A stretch of 32,000 nt of DNA, taken from Methanothermobacter thermautotrophicus str. Delta H (GTDB lineage: Archaea; Methanobacteriota; Methanobacteria; Methanobacteriales; Methanothermobacteraceae). Position 1 is the first letter of the stretch. The number at the start of each line of letters is the position of its first letter. The notes under the pieces were generated by a model that saw nothing but the letters and a program-made list of their open reading frames with translations, searched no databases and was not told the origin of the DNA. The DNA lies in the NCBI RefSeq assembly GCF_000008645.1, contig NC_000916.1, forward strand, positions 60,001 through 92,000, in the 5' to 3' direction. Of this stretch, positions 11,214 to 17,841 are shown one piece after another. Both the position numbers and the translations under genes were made by a program.

Positions 11214-11690
11214 CTAACCAAAGGTTGAGGATATCCAGTCCCCTGCATAGTGTGTTATTACTATGATCATGATGGCTGTTGCAATATGTTCCAGCAGAAC
11301 CCTTCCTGGAGGAACATTCCGGGACCTTGCGATATGAAAACTCAGAACCGTCAGAAGAAGAAGACCCCATATAATGGATACGATAATAGCCAGTGTTAAA
11401 TCGAGAGTAAGAACTGGAACAAGAAAGGTGAGGGCGAATAAAAATTTACTGATGAATGTTGCAAGGGTGGATTCCCAGATCTCTCCCTCTGTGTGAACAT
11501 TCTCTGCCTCCTCAGAGATGTGTATACCCATTGCATCTGAGAAGGCATCAGCTATTGCTATTGTAAGGACTCCGCCAATAACAGCAAGTCTTGAATGGGT
11601 ACCTGAATGCAGTCCAACCATGAGGCCGAGGGTTGTTATTATGGCCGAGGTGAGACCAAAGCTCAGCCCTGTTTTCAGAGAATGTTTCAT
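11214..11690 (-). CDS. VIT1/CCC1-family (iron/manganese transporter-like) membrane protein
   Basis: Hydrophobic ORF with GLSFGLTSAIITTLGLMVGL and AIADAFSDAMGIHISEE typical of the VIT family membrane domain. ATG 11690 is preferred over the GTG at 11708, which overlaps the upstream stop. Confidence 0.75.
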   Translation of the reverse strand: MKHSLKTGLSFGLTSAIITTLGLMVGLHSGTHSRLAVIGGVLTIAIADAFSDAMGIHISEEAENVHTEGEIWESTLATFISKFLFALTFLVPVLTLDLTLAIIVSIIWGLLLLTVLSFHIARSRNVPPGRVLLEHIATAIMIIVITHYAGDWISSTFG

Positions 11691-11707: not shown

Positions 11708-12834
11708 CTACTTCATCATTATATCAAGGACACCGGGCCTTTTAGTCTTCTTATTACCTCCAAGGATTCCGGATTCAAGGAATTCCCTGTTGGCCCTCCT
11801 GTTGATTTCGGCGAAGATCATCTTGTAGGCCTCGCACTGGTGGTCAACACCGTCTATCTCCATTTCACCATCCCTGATGGTGATTGCATTGTAGGGGCAC
11901 CCACCGAGACAGAACCTGTAGAAGTCACAGTCGCCACATTCCTCATCAACAAGTTCCCTCCATTCATAGAGCCTCCTTAGGGCTTCACTCTCCTCAAGAT
12001 CCTCCATTGAGGGCCTTTCAGCCACATTACCCATTATGTAGTCCTTCATACCAACGAAGCGATAGCATGGGTATATATCACCGTAGGGGTCAACTGCGAA
12101 GGTGTTGCCCACACAATCAGCATGTGTACATACAACCCCCTTCTGAGGAATGCGCTCTTTGCAAAGTGGTCTATGTTCTGTATCTCGATCTCACCGAAGT
12201 GCTCAAGGTAGCTGTCAAGGAGATACAGGAGCAGGTCACCGTACTCCTCGGCGGTTATGGCCCACTCCTCAGGGTCTGAACTCTTCAGGGATGGCAGGGC
12301 AGGGTGCAGCTTCAGGTTCATACCGTTCTCCAGGAAGAAGTTGAATATCTCCTCCCTCCTCCTTATCGAATAGGATGTGAAGGTGCTTATGAAGCTCACC
12401 CGAAGCCCATGCTTCCTTGCTATCTCATAGCCCTGCATGGTCCTATCAAAGTACCCATCGCCCCTCTGGTAATCATTTATCTCCCTTGGACCGTCGAGGC
12501 TTGAACCGATGGGTATGCTGTATTCTGCGAAGAGTTCCGCCATTTCATCGGTCATCAACCAGAGGTTCGTCTGGATGGCGAAGGCAGGCTTGAGGAATGA
12601 AAGCCTCTCAGATATTAGCTTGAGGGTGTCGCGGTAGAATTCGTATCCCGCAAGGAGCGGTTCCCCTCCATGGAATGTGAAGGTTGCAGGTTCATTTCTG
12701 AATTCCATAAGCCAGGAGACCATCTCCCTCACGGTTTCCATGTCCATAACCCTGGAGTCCCTGTCAACGCCCCAGCAGTAGCTGCAGTCTGAGGGACAGT
12801 TCATGGATGGTATTATCATGACATGGAATGCCAT
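11708..12834 (-). pseudogene. Radical SAM enzyme with a C-terminal SPASM domain (anSME/AslB-like). Frame is broken at the C5 run 12136-12140 as sequenced.
   Basis: The N-terminal part (12834->) has the CPSDCSYC radical-SAM triad and GGEPLL. After ...AKSAFLRRG the frame decays, while the adjacent frame reads VVCTHADCVGNTFAVDPYGDIYPCYRF...CGDCDFYRFCLGGCPYN...HQCEAYK, which is a SPASM/twitch Cys pattern. Adding one base to the G5 run (plus-strand C5 at 12136-12140) gives one ~375-aa protein. Confidence 0.85.
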
Positions 12835-12842
12835 AAAACCAC

Positions 12843-12995
12843 CTAATCTGCGGTCTCAAAGATGTGGCCGCATTTCTCACAGACTATCTCCTTCATGGAC
12901 GTCCTTGACTTGTGCTCATCCATGAATCTCCTCTTAACTACCTTGTCCCTGCAGCCACAGACAGGACACTTACTTAAAAACTCCTCCATTTTCAT
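12843..12995 (-). CDS. 50-aa Cys-rich mini-protein B (zinc-ribbon-like), not in the ORF track
   Basis: My translation: MKMEEFLSKCPVCGCRDKVVKRRFMDEHKSRTSMKEIVCEKCGHIFETAD. A GAGGT RBS lies 6 nt upstream. The start is 2 nt after the stop of mini-ORF A. The stop overlaps the AGGTGG RBS of the radical SAM gene, 8 nt before its ATG. Confidence 0.55.
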   Translation of the reverse strand: MKMEEFLSKCPVCGCRDKVVKRRFMDEHKSRTSMKEIVCEKCGHIFETAD

Positions 12996-12997
12996 GT

Positions 12998-13150
12998 CTA
13001 GACCTCTATTATCTCCTCAACAACATACTTACCGCCGCAGGGGCACTCCTCTATCCTGTCACCCAGGTGGTAGGGAGGGGTTTTACCCTCAACCTCAAGG
13101 GTTCTCTTTGCCCTGCAGAGGTCACAGTATGCAGTGACTATCCACATCAT
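12998..13150 (-). CDS. 50-aa Cys-rich mini-protein A (zinc-ribbon-like)
   Basis: MMWIVTAYCDLCRAKRTLEVEGKTPPYHLGDRIEECPCGGKYVVEEIIEV. I prefer ATG 13150 over the track start at 13198, because a TTATATAT box (13174-13181) sits ~27 nt upstream of this ATG, in a leaderless-type arrangement. Confidence 0.55.
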   Translation of the reverse strand: MMWIVTAYCDLCRAKRTLEVEGKTPPYHLGDRIEECPCGGKYVVEEIIEV

Positions 13151-13173
13151 GTAAATTAGATATAGAAGCTCCG

Positions 13174-13181
13174 ATATATAA
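13174..13181 (-). promoter_or_regulatory. TATA-box-like element for the mini-ORF / radical SAM operon
   Basis: The minus strand reads TTATATAT, ~27 nt upstream of ATG 13150. It lies in the divergent gap shared with the SOUL gene. Confidence 0.4.
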
Positions 13182-15748: not shown

Positions 15749-15925
15749 TTGGTTCCTGAGATAAAACAGAAGTGTCTGATATGCGGAAAGCCATGGATGG
15801 ATGGAAATGATACCTGTCCCCACTGTGGCAGCAAAAATAAAACCGCAAGCATAGATCCAGCAGATGATCTTGAACTACTGAGGTCTCTTAACAGCATTCT
15901 CAAAAAAGAAAGGGTTTCGGAGTAA
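15749..15925 (+). CDS. 58-aa zinc-ribbon mini-protein, not in the ORF track
   Basis: (TTG)VPEIKQKCLICGKPWMDGNDTCPHCGSKNKTASIDPADDLELLRSLNSILKKERVSE. GGTGA lies just upstream and a TATA-like atttatataa sits at 15681-15690. A hairpin and T-rich tract span the stop. The TTG start and tight RBS spacing lower my confidence. Confidence 0.4.
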   Translation: MVPEIKQKCLICGKPWMDGNDTCPHCGSKNKTASIDPADDLELLRSLNSILKKERVSE

Positions 15926-17616: not shown

Positions 17617-17841
17617 ATGAAGGTTGAGGATCTGAAAAAGCCATGCCCGGAATGTGGAGAGGTCGATAAGGACGTTTCAACAGTGAGAAATCCCCAGAAC
17701 AGGGATAAACTCAGGGAGGCAGGCATCCCTGAGGACCAGGAGATTGTGGGGGCAATAAAATGCAGCAGATGTGGATATGTCTTTGAATACTGTGAGGGGG
17801 GAAGCTGCAAAATAGAGGTCAAAAAGATTTCAATTGATTGA
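17617..17841 (+). CDS. Small zinc-ribbon protein (74 aa)
   Basis: CPECGEV...CSRCGYVFEYCEGGSC. Compact ORF in a divergent/convergent gap. No family recognised. Confidence 0.6.
   Translation: MKVEDLKKPCPECGEVDKDVSTVRNPQNRDKLREAGIPEDQEIVGAIKCSRCGYVFEYCEGGSCKIEVKKISID

What the first reader, a model, noticed from the sequence alone, without database searches (positions are those of the whole stretch)
11708..13181. Two tandem 50-codon Cys4 mini-ORFs translationally packed in front of a radical-SAM/SPASM enzyme: a candidate peptide-maturase (RiPP-like) unit
A TATA-like box at 13174-13181 is followed by mini-ORF A (12998-13150), a 2-nt gap, mini-ORF B (12843-12995, absent from the ORF track), and then the radical SAM gene, whose RBS overlaps B's stop. 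A and B are both exactly 50 codons. Each has one Cys pair near residue 10 and another near residue 38-42 (A: C9,C12,C36,C38; B: C10,C13,C15,C39,C42). SPASM-domain radical SAM enzymes (anSME, AlbA, SCIFF maturase, PqqE, QhpD) typically act on Cys-containing peptides or proteins encoded next door. The alternative is that A and B are ordinary structural zinc ribbons (CPxCG / CxxCG knuckles). The VIT1-like gene directly downstream may belong to the same transcript.
Basis: partly seen in the sequence, partly recalled or inferred. Interest (0 to 1): 0.6.

Follow-up and report, generated by a model that had tools for sequence, protein, structure and literature searches.

The report
Methanogen radical-SAM enzyme, likely MCR maturase
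The second mini-gene and the radical SAM gene are a database-listed but untested pair, and comparative genomics here suggests that the enzyme, which is broken in this laboratory strain, is the long-missing maker of the didehydroaspartate residue in the methane-forming enzyme MCR, not a peptide-antibiotic maturase.

Summary
Two 50-codon four-Cys ORFs sit in front of a frame-shifted radical SAM/SPASM gene in Methanothermobacter thermautotrophicus.

- **Known pair:** ORF B and the enzyme are the NCBIfam pair TIGR04165/TIGR04083. This scan met it three times before on other DNA. It is near-universal and mostly adjacent in Methanobacteriales.
- **ORF A:** a real but unrelated zinc-ribbon mini-protein. 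In other genera it follows chorismate synthase.
- **VIT1-like gene:** a neighbour in this genus only.
- **Frameshift:** real (G5 instead of G6) and shared with strain Z-245.

New here: the same enzyme, 56-60% identical with all 11 Cys kept, occurs in 196 of 268 Methanosarcinia genomes, and the nine of them checked lack peptide B. In at least nine species it lies directly after mcrA (mmp10 | mcrBDCGA | rSAM).

Its presence matches the known distribution of didehydroaspartate in McrA in 9 of 9 lineages tested:
- Present: M. marburgensis, M. acetivorans, ANME-2c, ANME-2d.
- Absent or truncated: M. wolfeii, Methermicoccus, Ethanoperedens, ANME-1, M. jannaschii as proxy.

No enzyme for this modification was found reported.

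Best reading (about 0.5): an anSME-like McrA Asp desaturase, with B as a zinc-ribbon partner. This is untested biochemically.

The parts
13174..13181 (-). TATA-like box (TTATATAT) about 27 nt upstream of ORF A's ATG. It is the likely promoter of a leaderless A-B-rSAM transcript.
   Evidence: Read directly from the sequence. The motif region is conserved in other Methanothermobacter loci (alignment). No transcript data were available.
12998..13150 (-). Mini-ORF A: a 50-aa CxxC...CxC zinc-ribbon mini-protein. It is a real gene but most likely not part of the enzyme system.
   Evidence: dN/dS is 0.07. Full-length homologues at 52-72% identity occur in 7 of 27 genera. Elsewhere it lies directly downstream of chorismate synthase. 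It has no Pfam or NCBIfam family and only two real representative clusters among 1.8 billion proteins. The AF2 model has pLDDT 95.5 and a four-stranded zinc-ribbon-like fold. In M. wolfeii it is destroyed by a 28-nt deletion.
12843..12995 (-). Mini-ORF B: a 50-aa member of TIGR04165 ('methano_modCys'), with CPxCG...CxxCG knuckles. It is the conserved companion of the enzyme in Methanobacteriales.
   Evidence: It scores 86 bits against a cut-off of 60. It was found in 149 of 151 genomes of the order. dN/dS is 0.05. Invariant residues are M1, C10, P11, C13, G14, D17, K18, C39, C42, G43 and F46; the third Cys (C15) varies between C, S, G, D and E. The AF2 model has pLDDT 68 and its best, weak, matches are zinc ribbons: Rpb9, Trm112, Brf1 and VdcD.
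12046..12834 (-). Radical SAM core of the TIGR04083 enzyme (frame 1). It carries the CxxxCxxC motif NCPSDCSYC and runs into a stop after the frameshift.
   Evidence: It scores 375 bits against TIGR04083 over HMM positions 1-231 and matches Pfam Radical_SAM.
12136..12140 (-). G5 homopolymer where the reading frame breaks. Intact relatives have G6. The shift removes the first two auxiliary-cluster cysteines (VVCTHADC).
   Evidence: The window, Z-245 and two Logan assemblies have G5. ENA contig L073, 99.0% identical, has G6 and a 375-aa ORF. All other Methanothermobacter species except M. wolfeii have intact genes. C236 and C241 are invariant in the family.
11708..12112 (-). SPASM-domain part of the same enzyme in the second frame (HMM positions 239-376).
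   Evidence: It scores 172.8 bits against TIGR04083, and matches the SPASM domain models PF13186 and TIGR04085.
11214..11690 (-). VIT1-like membrane protein immediately downstream. It is probably co-transcribed here but is not a conserved member of the system.
   Evidence: It gives a weak Pfam VIT1 match. It did not appear among the conserved neighbour clusters in 38 loci across the order.
17617..17841 (+). Second, longer TIGR04165 family member (74 aa, here called 'B2'), about 4.6 kb away on the other strand. It has an insert between the two Cys knuckles and an extra C-terminal CxxxxC.
   Evidence: It scores 78.7 bits, over the cut-off. All nine Methanothermobacter genomes score two family matches, and a copy at this relative position is listed for eight of them. 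Similar long paralogues occur in other genera, close to the enzyme in some and hundreds of kb away in others.

Best explanation
**Shown**
- The locus encodes (i) ORF A, an independent zinc-ribbon mini-protein; (ii) ORF B, a TIGR04165 zinc-ribbon-like mini-protein; and (iii) a TIGR04083 radical SAM/SPASM enzyme.
- The enzyme has three Cys sets: CxxxCxxC plus eight SPASM-region cysteines.
- In M. thermautotrophicus DeltaH and Z-245 the enzyme is inactivated by a one-base deletion in a G run.

**Inferred: what the enzyme does**
- It is not a RiPP maturase. It is the missing maturase that converts the active-site aspartate of McrA (Asp450 in M. marburgensis, Asp470 in M. acetivorans) into didehydroaspartate.

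**Inferred: how it would work** (by analogy with its closest characterised relative, the anaerobic sulfatase-maturing enzyme)
- The 5'-deoxyadenosyl radical removes a C-beta hydrogen of the aspartate.
- The auxiliary [4Fe-4S] clusters take up the electron.

**Inferred: the role of B**
- B would be a Methanobacteria-specific zinc-ribbon partner, acting as an adaptor or small subunit in the way Trm112 and VdcD do. It would not be the substrate.

**Prediction**
- MCR from DeltaH and Z-245 should lack didehydroaspartate, as M. wolfeii MCR does.
For: **1. Gene context**
- In six fetched loci the order is mmp10 (divergent) | mcrB-D-C-G-A | TIGR04083.
- Coordinates show the same adjacency, with a 170-490 bp gap on the same strand, in nine genomes.
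- Sister species have mcrA followed directly by the next gene. This is a clean presence/absence of the radical SAM gene.

**2. Distribution against published didehydroaspartate status** (PMC9081873 Table 1; PMC12413448)
- Modification present, gene intact:
  - M. marburgensis (G001; its McrA best matches 1MRO/5A0Y)
  - M. acetivorans (named control)
  - ANME-2d (Mnv1; McrA 1212 bits to 9QQT)
  - ANME-2c (G170; 1213 bits to 9QM5)
- Modification absent, gene absent or truncated:
  - M. wolfeii (G008; identified by 100% identity to the psiM100 region and a best McrA match to 5A8K; TAG stop after residue 336 removes six invariant residues)
  - Methermicoccus shengliensis (G157, McrA matches 7NKG; best radical SAM hit 85 bits against a cut-off of 300)
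  - Ca. Ethanoperedens (G159, matches 7B1S; best hit 62 bits)
  - ANME-1 (five genomes, one matching 3SQG)
  - M. jannaschii (control)

**3. The substrate sequence does not explain the pattern**
- The McrA motif GF(Y/F)GYDLQDQCGA carries the same DLQDQCG core in species with and without the modification. Presence must therefore depend on a trans-acting enzyme.

**4. The enzyme is strongly conserved across two phyla without B**
- It is 56-60% identical between Methanobacteria and Methanosarcinia, with all 11 Cys conserved.
- It occurs in 196 of 268 Methanosarcinia genomes.
- The nine Methanosarcinia-side genomes checked have no TIGR04165 peptide, and none lay within 4 kb of the enzyme in those loci.

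**5. Closest characterised family**
- The anaerobic sulfatase maturase is the closest characterised family (187 bits on an intact homologue). It is a protein-modifying two-electron oxidase without an RRE.

**6. No enzyme for the modification was found in the literature**
- Reviews state that none is known, and no enzyme for it turned up in the titles, abstracts and passages checked in the later searches.
Against: - There is no biochemical or genetic evidence at all.
- In most genomes, including this one, the gene is not near mcr.
- The nine mcr-linked genomes are close relatives (enzymes 90-92% identical). The linkage may therefore count as one evolutionary event.
- The lineages in the correlation are few and phylogenetically non-independent. 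Two negatives, Methermicoccus and Ethanoperedens, have small genomes that lack many genes.
- The M. wolfeii protein keeps all its cysteines and might still work.
- The near-universal, tightly linked peptide B in Methanobacteriales is left without a demonstrated role. Its linkage is what a substrate would show.
- M. kandleri, M. formicicus, M. thermolithotrophicus and M. barkeri itself were not individually tested.
Confidence: 0.5

Rival explanations
1. The database reading: peptide B (TIGR04165) is the substrate. The enzyme modifies it post-translationally, for example with a thioether cross-link or another change at a Cys, or at the invariant Asp17/Lys18. This would give a lineage-wide modified mini-protein, comparable to SCIFF/ScfB in Clostridia or CrpA/CrpC in Methanococcus voltae. 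The Methanosarcinia enzymes would act on a different, unrecognised substrate.
For: - B and the enzyme co-occur in 149-150 of 151 Methanobacteriales genomes.
- They stay adjacent on the same strand even though the order flips: B is upstream in some genera and downstream in others.
- The enzyme's relatives are mostly peptide maturases.
- An archaeal SPASM enzyme was recently shown to cross-link a Cys-rich protein (PMC13692751).
Against: - The enzyme is equally conserved in 196 of 268 Methanosarcinia genomes, and the nine checked have no B anywhere in the genome.
- In one Methanobacteriales genus (g10, 13 genomes) B and the enzyme are unlinked.
- B's four invariant cysteines sit in canonical zinc knuckles, and the fifth is not conserved.
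- The enzyme has no RRE.
- This reading does not explain the placement in the mcr operon or the match with didehydroaspartate.
Confidence: 0.25
2. The enzyme acts on MCR or another methanogen-specific protein but installs something other than didehydroaspartate. Alternatively, the match with didehydroaspartate is a coincidence of shared phylogeny.
For: The mcr-operon context points to MCR but not to a particular residue. Only about nine lineages have known modification status.
Against: - Among the MCR modifications listed in the papers read, the others have assigned enzymes or distributions that do not fit.
- S-methyl-Cys is present in M. wolfeii and Ethanoperedens.
- 2-methyl-Gln is absent from Methanosarcina.
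- Hydroxy-Trp is absent from M. marburgensis.
- N1-methyl-His is universal.
Confidence: 0.15
3. One reading: A and B are two tandem precursor peptides of a RiPP-like natural product, matured by the radical SAM enzyme and perhaps exported or handled by the VIT1-like protein.
For: The three genes are packed tightly enough for translational coupling in Methanothermobacter. In M. wolfeii both A and the enzyme are damaged while B is intact, which could hint at a link between A and the enzyme.
Against: - A is unrelated to B.
- A is undetected in 20 of 27 genera and elsewhere follows chorismate synthase.
- A is a rigid, confidently folded zinc ribbon.
- The VIT1-like gene is a neighbour only in this genus.
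- There is no leader/core architecture, no hypervariability, no RRE, and no protease or transporter conserved with the pair.
Confidence: 0.03
4. The split gene is still functional in DeltaH, either through ribosomal or transcriptional slippage at the G run or as two associating polypeptides.
For: The break lies in a homopolymer. The downstream frame has a GTG at 12112. The surrounding sequence shows no further decay.
Against: - G5 is short for slippage, and there is no X XXY YYZ heptamer.
- Neither frame encodes the invariant C236 and C241.
- The lack of further decay is expected for a recent mutation: a relative only 1% divergent still has the intact G6 allele, and the locus is identical between DeltaH and Z-245.
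Confidence: 0.05

Closest known systems
NCBIfam/TIGRFAMs pair TIGR04083 (rSAM_pep_methan) and TIGR04165 (methano_modCys)
   Same: The window's enzyme and ORF B are members by HMM score. The adjacency that motivated the curated pairing is reproduced across the order.
   Different: - Both models are 'hypothetical equivalogs' with no experimental basis, and no paper citing them was found.
- The names presume that B is the modified substrate.
- Here the enzyme is shown to be widespread without B and linked to mcr.
- In this strain the enzyme gene is frame-shifted.
Anaerobic sulfatase-maturing enzymes (anSME/AtsB, TIGR03942)
   Same: This is the closest characterised family (108 + 54 bits here, 187 bits on an intact homologue). 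The shared features rest on established knowledge of anSME: a radical SAM core plus a SPASM domain with two auxiliary clusters, no RRE, action on a protein, and a two-electron oxidation started by C-beta hydrogen abstraction.
   Different: Scores are far below the anSME cut-off of 349, so this is not a member. There is no sulfatase or C/S-x-P-x-R motif partner. The proposed product is an alpha,beta-dehydro residue, not formylglycine.
Mmp10 (McrA Arg methyltransferase) and MgmA/QCMT (McrA Gln methyltransferase)
   Same: These are radical SAM enzymes dedicated to McrA active-site modifications. Mmp10 flanks the same mcr operons that carry TIGR04083 at the other end. Their distribution among methanogens is also patchy (PMC11796369, PMC9401015).
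   Different: They are cobalamin-dependent methyltransferases, whereas TIGR04083 is a SPASM-type enzyme with no B12 domain. Their roles are proven genetically and biochemically. The role of TIGR04083 is inferred only.
CrpC/CrpA of Methanococcus voltae (PMC13692751, 2026)
   Same: An archaeal radical SAM/SPASM enzyme with three [4Fe-4S] clusters that modifies a neighbouring Cys-rich protein by ranthionine thioether links. It is the only experimentally tested methanogen analogue of the 'B is the substrate' reading.
   Different: CrpC has an RRE and N-terminal substrate-binding domains, and it comes from a different order. Its substrate is a larger Cys-rich protein, not a 50-aa two-knuckle zinc ribbon.
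SCIFF peptide / ScfB maturase of Clostridia (TIGR03973/TIGR03974)
   Same: A small Cys-rich peptide and a SPASM radical SAM enzyme kept together as a lineage-wide core pair, not a sporadic biosynthetic cluster. This comparison rests on my own knowledge.
   Different: The enzyme is not a member (52 bits against a cut-off of 425). The SCIFF cysteines are not arranged as zinc knuckles.
Small zinc-ribbon partner subunits (Trm112, VdcD)
   Same: The B model's best structural matches include A. fulgidus Trm112 and the VdcD subunit of vanillate decarboxylase. Both are mini zinc ribbons that bind and stabilise or activate an enzyme.
   Different: The matches are weak (E >= 0.18, model pLDDT 68). There is no sequence relationship, and no interaction has been tested.

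Membership tests
TIGR04165 (methano_modCys Cys-rich peptide) | HMM score over the curated cut-off (60 bits) | tested here: met
   ORF B scores 86.0 bits over the full length, positions 1-50. ORF A gives no hit. The second copy at 17617-17841 scores 78.7 bits.
TIGR04165 (methano_modCys Cys-rich peptide) | Encoded next to a TIGR04083 radical SAM gene | tested here: met
   There are 8 nt between B's stop and the enzyme's ATG. The same-strand neighbourhood holds in nearly all sampled genera except g10.
TIGR04083 (peptide-modifying radical SAM enzyme) | HMM score over the curated cut-off (300 bits) across the full 376 positions | tested here: inconclusive
   The N-terminal frame alone scores 375 bits (positions 1-231) and the C-terminal frame 173 bits (239-376). 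The gene is split by a frameshift, so no single product spans the model.
TIGR04083 (peptide-modifying radical SAM enzyme) | CxxxCxxC radical SAM motif plus the complete SPASM cysteine set | tested here: not met
   CxxxCxxC is present (C13, C17, C20). The frameshift removes invariant C236 and C241 from both reading frames in this strain. The feature is met in the G6 allele and in seven other Methanothermobacter species.
RiPP precursor/maturase system | Maturase carries, or is accompanied by, a RiPP recognition element (PqqD-like) | tested here: not met
   There is no PqqD/RRE match in the enzyme, in A or in B.
RiPP precursor/maturase system | Precursor with a conserved leader and a variable core; sporadic distribution | tested here: not met
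   B is conserved along its whole length. Its 11 invariant positions are spread over residues 1-46, and dN/dS is 0.05. The pair occurs in 149-150 of 151 genomes, with the enzyme in single copy.
Zinc ribbon (two CxxC knuckles on beta-hairpins) | Two Cys knuckles and a three- or four-stranded ribbon fold | tested here: inconclusive
   A has CxxC...CxC, pLDDT 95.5 and four strands; its best matches are zinc-ribbon inserts of aRF1 and MCM, but with E >= 0.09. B has CPxCG...CxxCG, pLDDT 68 and three strands; its best matches are the zinc ribbons of Rpb9, Trm112 and Brf1, with E >= 0.18. Metal binding is not testable here.
Anaerobic sulfatase maturase (TIGR03942) | HMM score over the cut-off (349 bits) | tested here: not met
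   The two fragments score 108.6 and 53.7 bits. An intact homologue scores 187 bits. This is a related family, not a member.
MCR post-translational modification enzyme | Genomic association with the mcr operon | tested here: met
   The order mmp10 | mcrBDCGA | TIGR04083 holds in six fetched loci and in nine genomes by coordinates. It does not hold in this window's genome, where mcrA lies about 1 Mb away.
MCR post-translational modification enzyme | Presence of the gene tracks presence of the modification | tested here: met
   9 of 9 lineages with published didehydroaspartate status agree. M. kandleri, M. formicicus, M. thermolithotrophicus and M. barkeri itself were not tested.
MCR post-translational modification enzyme | Loss of the modification on gene deletion, or in vitro activity on McrA | not testable with these tools
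   This needs genetics in M. acetivorans or M. thermautotrophicus, or enzyme reconstitution.

The most novel reading that the evidence does not exclude
TIGR04083 is the long-sought didehydroaspartate synthase of methyl-coenzyme M reductase. It would be an anSME-like radical SAM/SPASM enzyme that desaturates the active-site Asp of McrA.

- M. wolfeii (nonsense codon) and the laboratory strains M. thermautotrophicus DeltaH and Z-245 (G-run frameshift) would be natural knock-outs.
- The TIGR04165 'Cys-rich peptide' would be a zinc-ribbon partner subunit used only in Methanobacteria, not a modified peptide.
Probability: 0.5. Interest if true: 0.85.

Novelty: new variant of a known kind. Interest (0 to 1): 0.75.

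Why it matters
MCR is the enzyme responsible for essentially all biological methane formation and for anaerobic methane oxidation. Its active-site modifications are a major obstacle to understanding it and to expressing it heterologously.

Didehydroaspartate was described in 2016. Reviews up to 2021 state that no enzyme or mechanism is known for it (PMC7581889, PMC8070964), and no enzyme for it turned up in the later searches of the held library.

A concrete, well-conserved candidate gene makes the question directly testable in genetically tractable methanogens:
- A natural frameshift exists in the model strain DeltaH.
- A nonsense allele exists in M. wolfeii.
- The gene shows clean presence/absence at the end of the mcr operon between sister species.

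The work also corrects a database-propagated assumption, 'peptide-modifying enzyme with Cys-rich peptide substrate'. If confirmed, it would add protein Asp desaturation to the chemistry of SPASM radical SAM enzymes.

If the hypothesis fails, the locus is still a catalogued, uncharacterised pair of modest interest.

Tried and rejected
- **Word-indexed homologue searches** with the 50-aa proteins A and B returned only their own clusters, plus one close relative of A. The exhaustive representative search for A found just two real clusters.
- **The phylum-level search around the window's genome** only re-sampled Methanobacteria. It did not reach Methanococcales or Methanopyrales, so those lineages rest on the M. 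jannaschii control alone.
- **Literature searches** for the TIGR accessions found nothing. Guessed MTH locus tags gave irrelevant word-start matches. Supplementary expression tables of the Methanothermobacter systems-biology paper are not held.
- **A as a paralogue of B:** rejected, no similarity.
- **VIT1-like gene as a system member:** rejected, not a conserved neighbour.
- **A hidden substrate peptide next to the enzyme in Methanosarcinia:** no small ORF is conserved across those loci. An AbrB-like 53-aa ORF follows it in only six Methanoperedens loci, and the flanking genes are unrelated housekeeping genes.
- **Programmed frameshifting at the G run:** considered and judged unsupported, because the run is short and has no slippery heptamer.
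- **B as a mimic of the McrA DLQDQCG segment:** no convincing similarity by eye.
- **The 1997 sequencing-error explanation for the frameshift:** rejected, because the allele is identical in Z-245 and in two independent assemblies.
Full report
**1. What is in the window**

The window is positions 60001-92000 of a single-contig genome of 1,751,377 bp.

- a TTATATAT box at 13174-13181;
- ORF A at 12998-13150, 50 codons;
- a 2-nt gap;
- ORF B at 12843-12995, 50 codons;
- a GGTG ribosome-binding site overlapping B's stop;
- a radical SAM gene starting at 12834;
- a VIT1-like gene at 11214-11690.

The radical SAM gene is split. Frame 1 (12046-12834) matches Pfam Radical_SAM. Frame 2 (11708-12112) matches SPASM.

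**2. Identity of the parts**

- NCBIfam places ORF B in TIGR04165 'methano_modCys' (86 bits, cut-off 60).
- It places both halves of the enzyme in TIGR04083 'peptide-modifying radical SAM enzyme' (375 bits for positions 1-231 and 173 bits for 239-376).
- The B-enzyme pairing is therefore already catalogued, as hypothetical equivalogs. No paper mentioning either accession was found.
- Three earlier findings of this scan met the same pair in other genomes.
- ORF A has no family and no similarity to B.
- A second, longer TIGR04165 member lies at 17617-17841 on the plus strand.

**3. The frameshift is real**

- The frame breaks at a G5 run at 12136-12140. With G6 the frames join to give ...FLRRGVVCTHADCVGNTF...
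- An ENA metagenome contig that is 99.0% identical over 2.6 kb has G6 and an intact 375-aa gene.
- The G5 allele is 100% identical in CP064337.1 and in two Logan assemblies.
- PMC10579436 identifies CP064337 as part of the strain Z-245 reference.
- The deletion removes C236 and C241. Both are invariant in the family and belong to the auxiliary-cluster motif.
- Seven other Methanothermobacter species have intact genes.

**4. Distribution in Methanobacteriales**

- TIGR04083 was found in 150 of 151 sampled genomes, as a single copy. TIGR04165 was found in 149 of 151.
- I compared the two coordinate lists by eye. The best peptide match is on the same strand within about 7 kb, and mostly 20-700 bp from the enzyme, in all genera but one.
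- The peptide is upstream in some genera and downstream in others.
- In genus g10 (13 genomes) the two are at least 0.49 Mb apart or on different contigs.
- B is under strong purifying selection (dN/dS 0.05).
- B has 11 invariant positions, including CPxCG, DK and CxxCG...F. The third Cys of the window's B is not conserved.
- The VIT1-like gene is not a conserved neighbour.

**5. ORF A is a separate gene**

- A is a real protein (dN/dS 0.07).
- Full-length homologues were found in only 38 of 151 genomes and 7 of 27 genera.
- Outside Methanothermobacter and genus g17, A is far from the enzyme. It lies directly downstream of chorismate synthase in 8 of 8 such loci examined.
- In g17 a heliorhodopsin gene separates A from B.
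- In the next-closest named lineage, B is adjacent to the enzyme but A is not within 4 kb.
- AF2 gives a very confident four-stranded model (pLDDT 95.5). It resembles the zinc-ribbon inserts of aRF1 and MCM.
- One observation points the other way. In M. wolfeii both A (28-nt deletion) and the enzyme (TAG stop) are damaged while B is intact.

**6. The enzyme exists widely without B**

- A scan of species-representative genomes found TIGR04083 homologues at 57-63% identity in Ca. Methanoperedens, Methanosarcina and other Methanosarcinales.
- None of those loci has a TIGR04165-type ORF within 4 kb.
- Whole-genome searches of nine such genomes found no family member.
- In the class Methanosarcinia, 196 of 268 genomes carry the enzyme.
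- All 11 cysteines are conserved between the two lineages.
- An enzyme this conserved across two phyla should have a substrate common to both.

**7. Link to MCR**

- I compared the enzyme coordinates with the mcrA coordinates. In nine Methanosarcinia genomes the enzyme gene lies 170-490 bp downstream of mcrA on the same strand.
- Six of these loci were fetched. All read mmp10 (divergent) | mcrB | mcrD | mcrC | mcrG | mcrA | TIGR04083.
- Closely related species that lack the enzyme (McrA 92-96% identical) have mcrA followed directly by the hydantoinase-like gene that otherwise follows the enzyme. This is a clean presence/absence.

**8. Match to didehydroaspartate**

The enzyme for the didehydroaspartate of McrA is stated to be unknown (PMC7581889, PMC8070964). 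No enzyme for it turned up in the later searches. Published status comes from PMC9081873 Table 1 and PMC12413448.

The results:

| Lineage | Didehydroaspartate | TIGR04083 gene | Calls |
|---|---|---|---|
| M. marburgensis | present | intact | 11, 77 |
| M. acetivorans | present | present | control in 6, 11, 13, 64 |
| ANME-2d | present | present | 45, 64, 72, 73 |
| ANME-2c | present | present | 64, 109, 110 |
| M. wolfeii | absent | TAG after residue 336, losing six invariant residues | 11, 29, 44, 53, 78, 117 |
| Methermicoccus shengliensis | absent | absent | 65, 66, 69 |
| Ca. Ethanoperedens | absent | absent | 65, 69, 70 |
| ANME-1 | absent | absent in five genomes | 100-102 |
| Methanococcales | absent | absent in the M. 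jannaschii control only | controls |

- That is nine of nine. A naive Fisher test on four against five gives about 0.008, but it ignores relatedness.
- The McrA motif around the target Asp has the same DLQDQCG core in species with and without the modification.

**9. Mechanism and the role of B (inferred)**

- The closest characterised family is the anaerobic sulfatase maturase. That enzyme oxidises a protein side chain after C-beta hydrogen abstraction and passes the electron to its SPASM clusters.
- The B model is of moderate confidence (pLDDT 68). It resembles zinc ribbons, including the partner subunits Trm112 and VdcD.
- I therefore read B as a partner, not a substrate. This is the weakest link. 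The database reading, in which B is the substrate, remains a serious rival.
- The only tested archaeal analogue, CrpC/CrpA, belongs to a different family that has an RRE.

**10. Limits**

- There are no expression data.
- The mcr-linked genomes are kin.
- Four reference organisms were not individually checked.
- Nothing here is biochemical.

Noticed in passing
L058:556-1380 (-) and L059:1770-2594 (+): A heliorhodopsin gene (Pfam PF18761, E = 7e-96) sits between the ORF A homologue and the B-rSAM pair in two genomes of Methanobacteriales genus g17. A light-sensing rhodopsin in a methanogen lineage is unusual.
   Followed up: no
L017 (M. wolfeii), locus positions about 2790-2910 on the reverse strand: In M. 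wolfeii the ORF A homologue carries a 28-nt deletion, and the radical SAM gene in the same locus has a premature TAG. ORF B stays intact. This is the only hint that A might be functionally tied to the enzyme.
   Followed up: partly
L105:252-1970 (+): In Ca. Methanoperedens nitroreducens, a B12-binding radical SAM protein with a C-terminal PqqD-like domain lies about 2 kb upstream of the TIGR04083 gene. ANME-2d MCR carries an unexplained 3(S)-methylhistidine (PMC12413448), so this could be a candidate methyltransferase.
   Followed up: no
window 15749-15925 (+): A 58-aa ORF with two CxxC pairs (KCLICG...CPHCG) gives a weak TIGR04165 hit (16.9 bits). It is probably another small zinc-ribbon gene.
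   Followed up: no
The SOUL gene is also ORF A's divergent neighbour in genus g17.
   Followed up: partly
L106, L118, L132, L143, L145, L149 (e.g. L132:5196-5357 +): A conserved 53-aa ORF that looks AbrB/SpoVT-like by eye lies downstream of the TIGR04083 gene in six Methanoperedens-type loci, directly behind it in four of them. It is not Cys-rich.
   Followed up: no
L029:1273-1449 (+), L082:5337-5507 (-), L093:5197-5370 (-), L103:5204-5377 (-): In several Methanobacterium-type genomes a long-insert TIGR04165 paralogue (like the window's 17617-17841 copy) lies between the enzyme and the short B, on the opposite strand. Many genomes thus carry two or three family members.
   Followed up: partly
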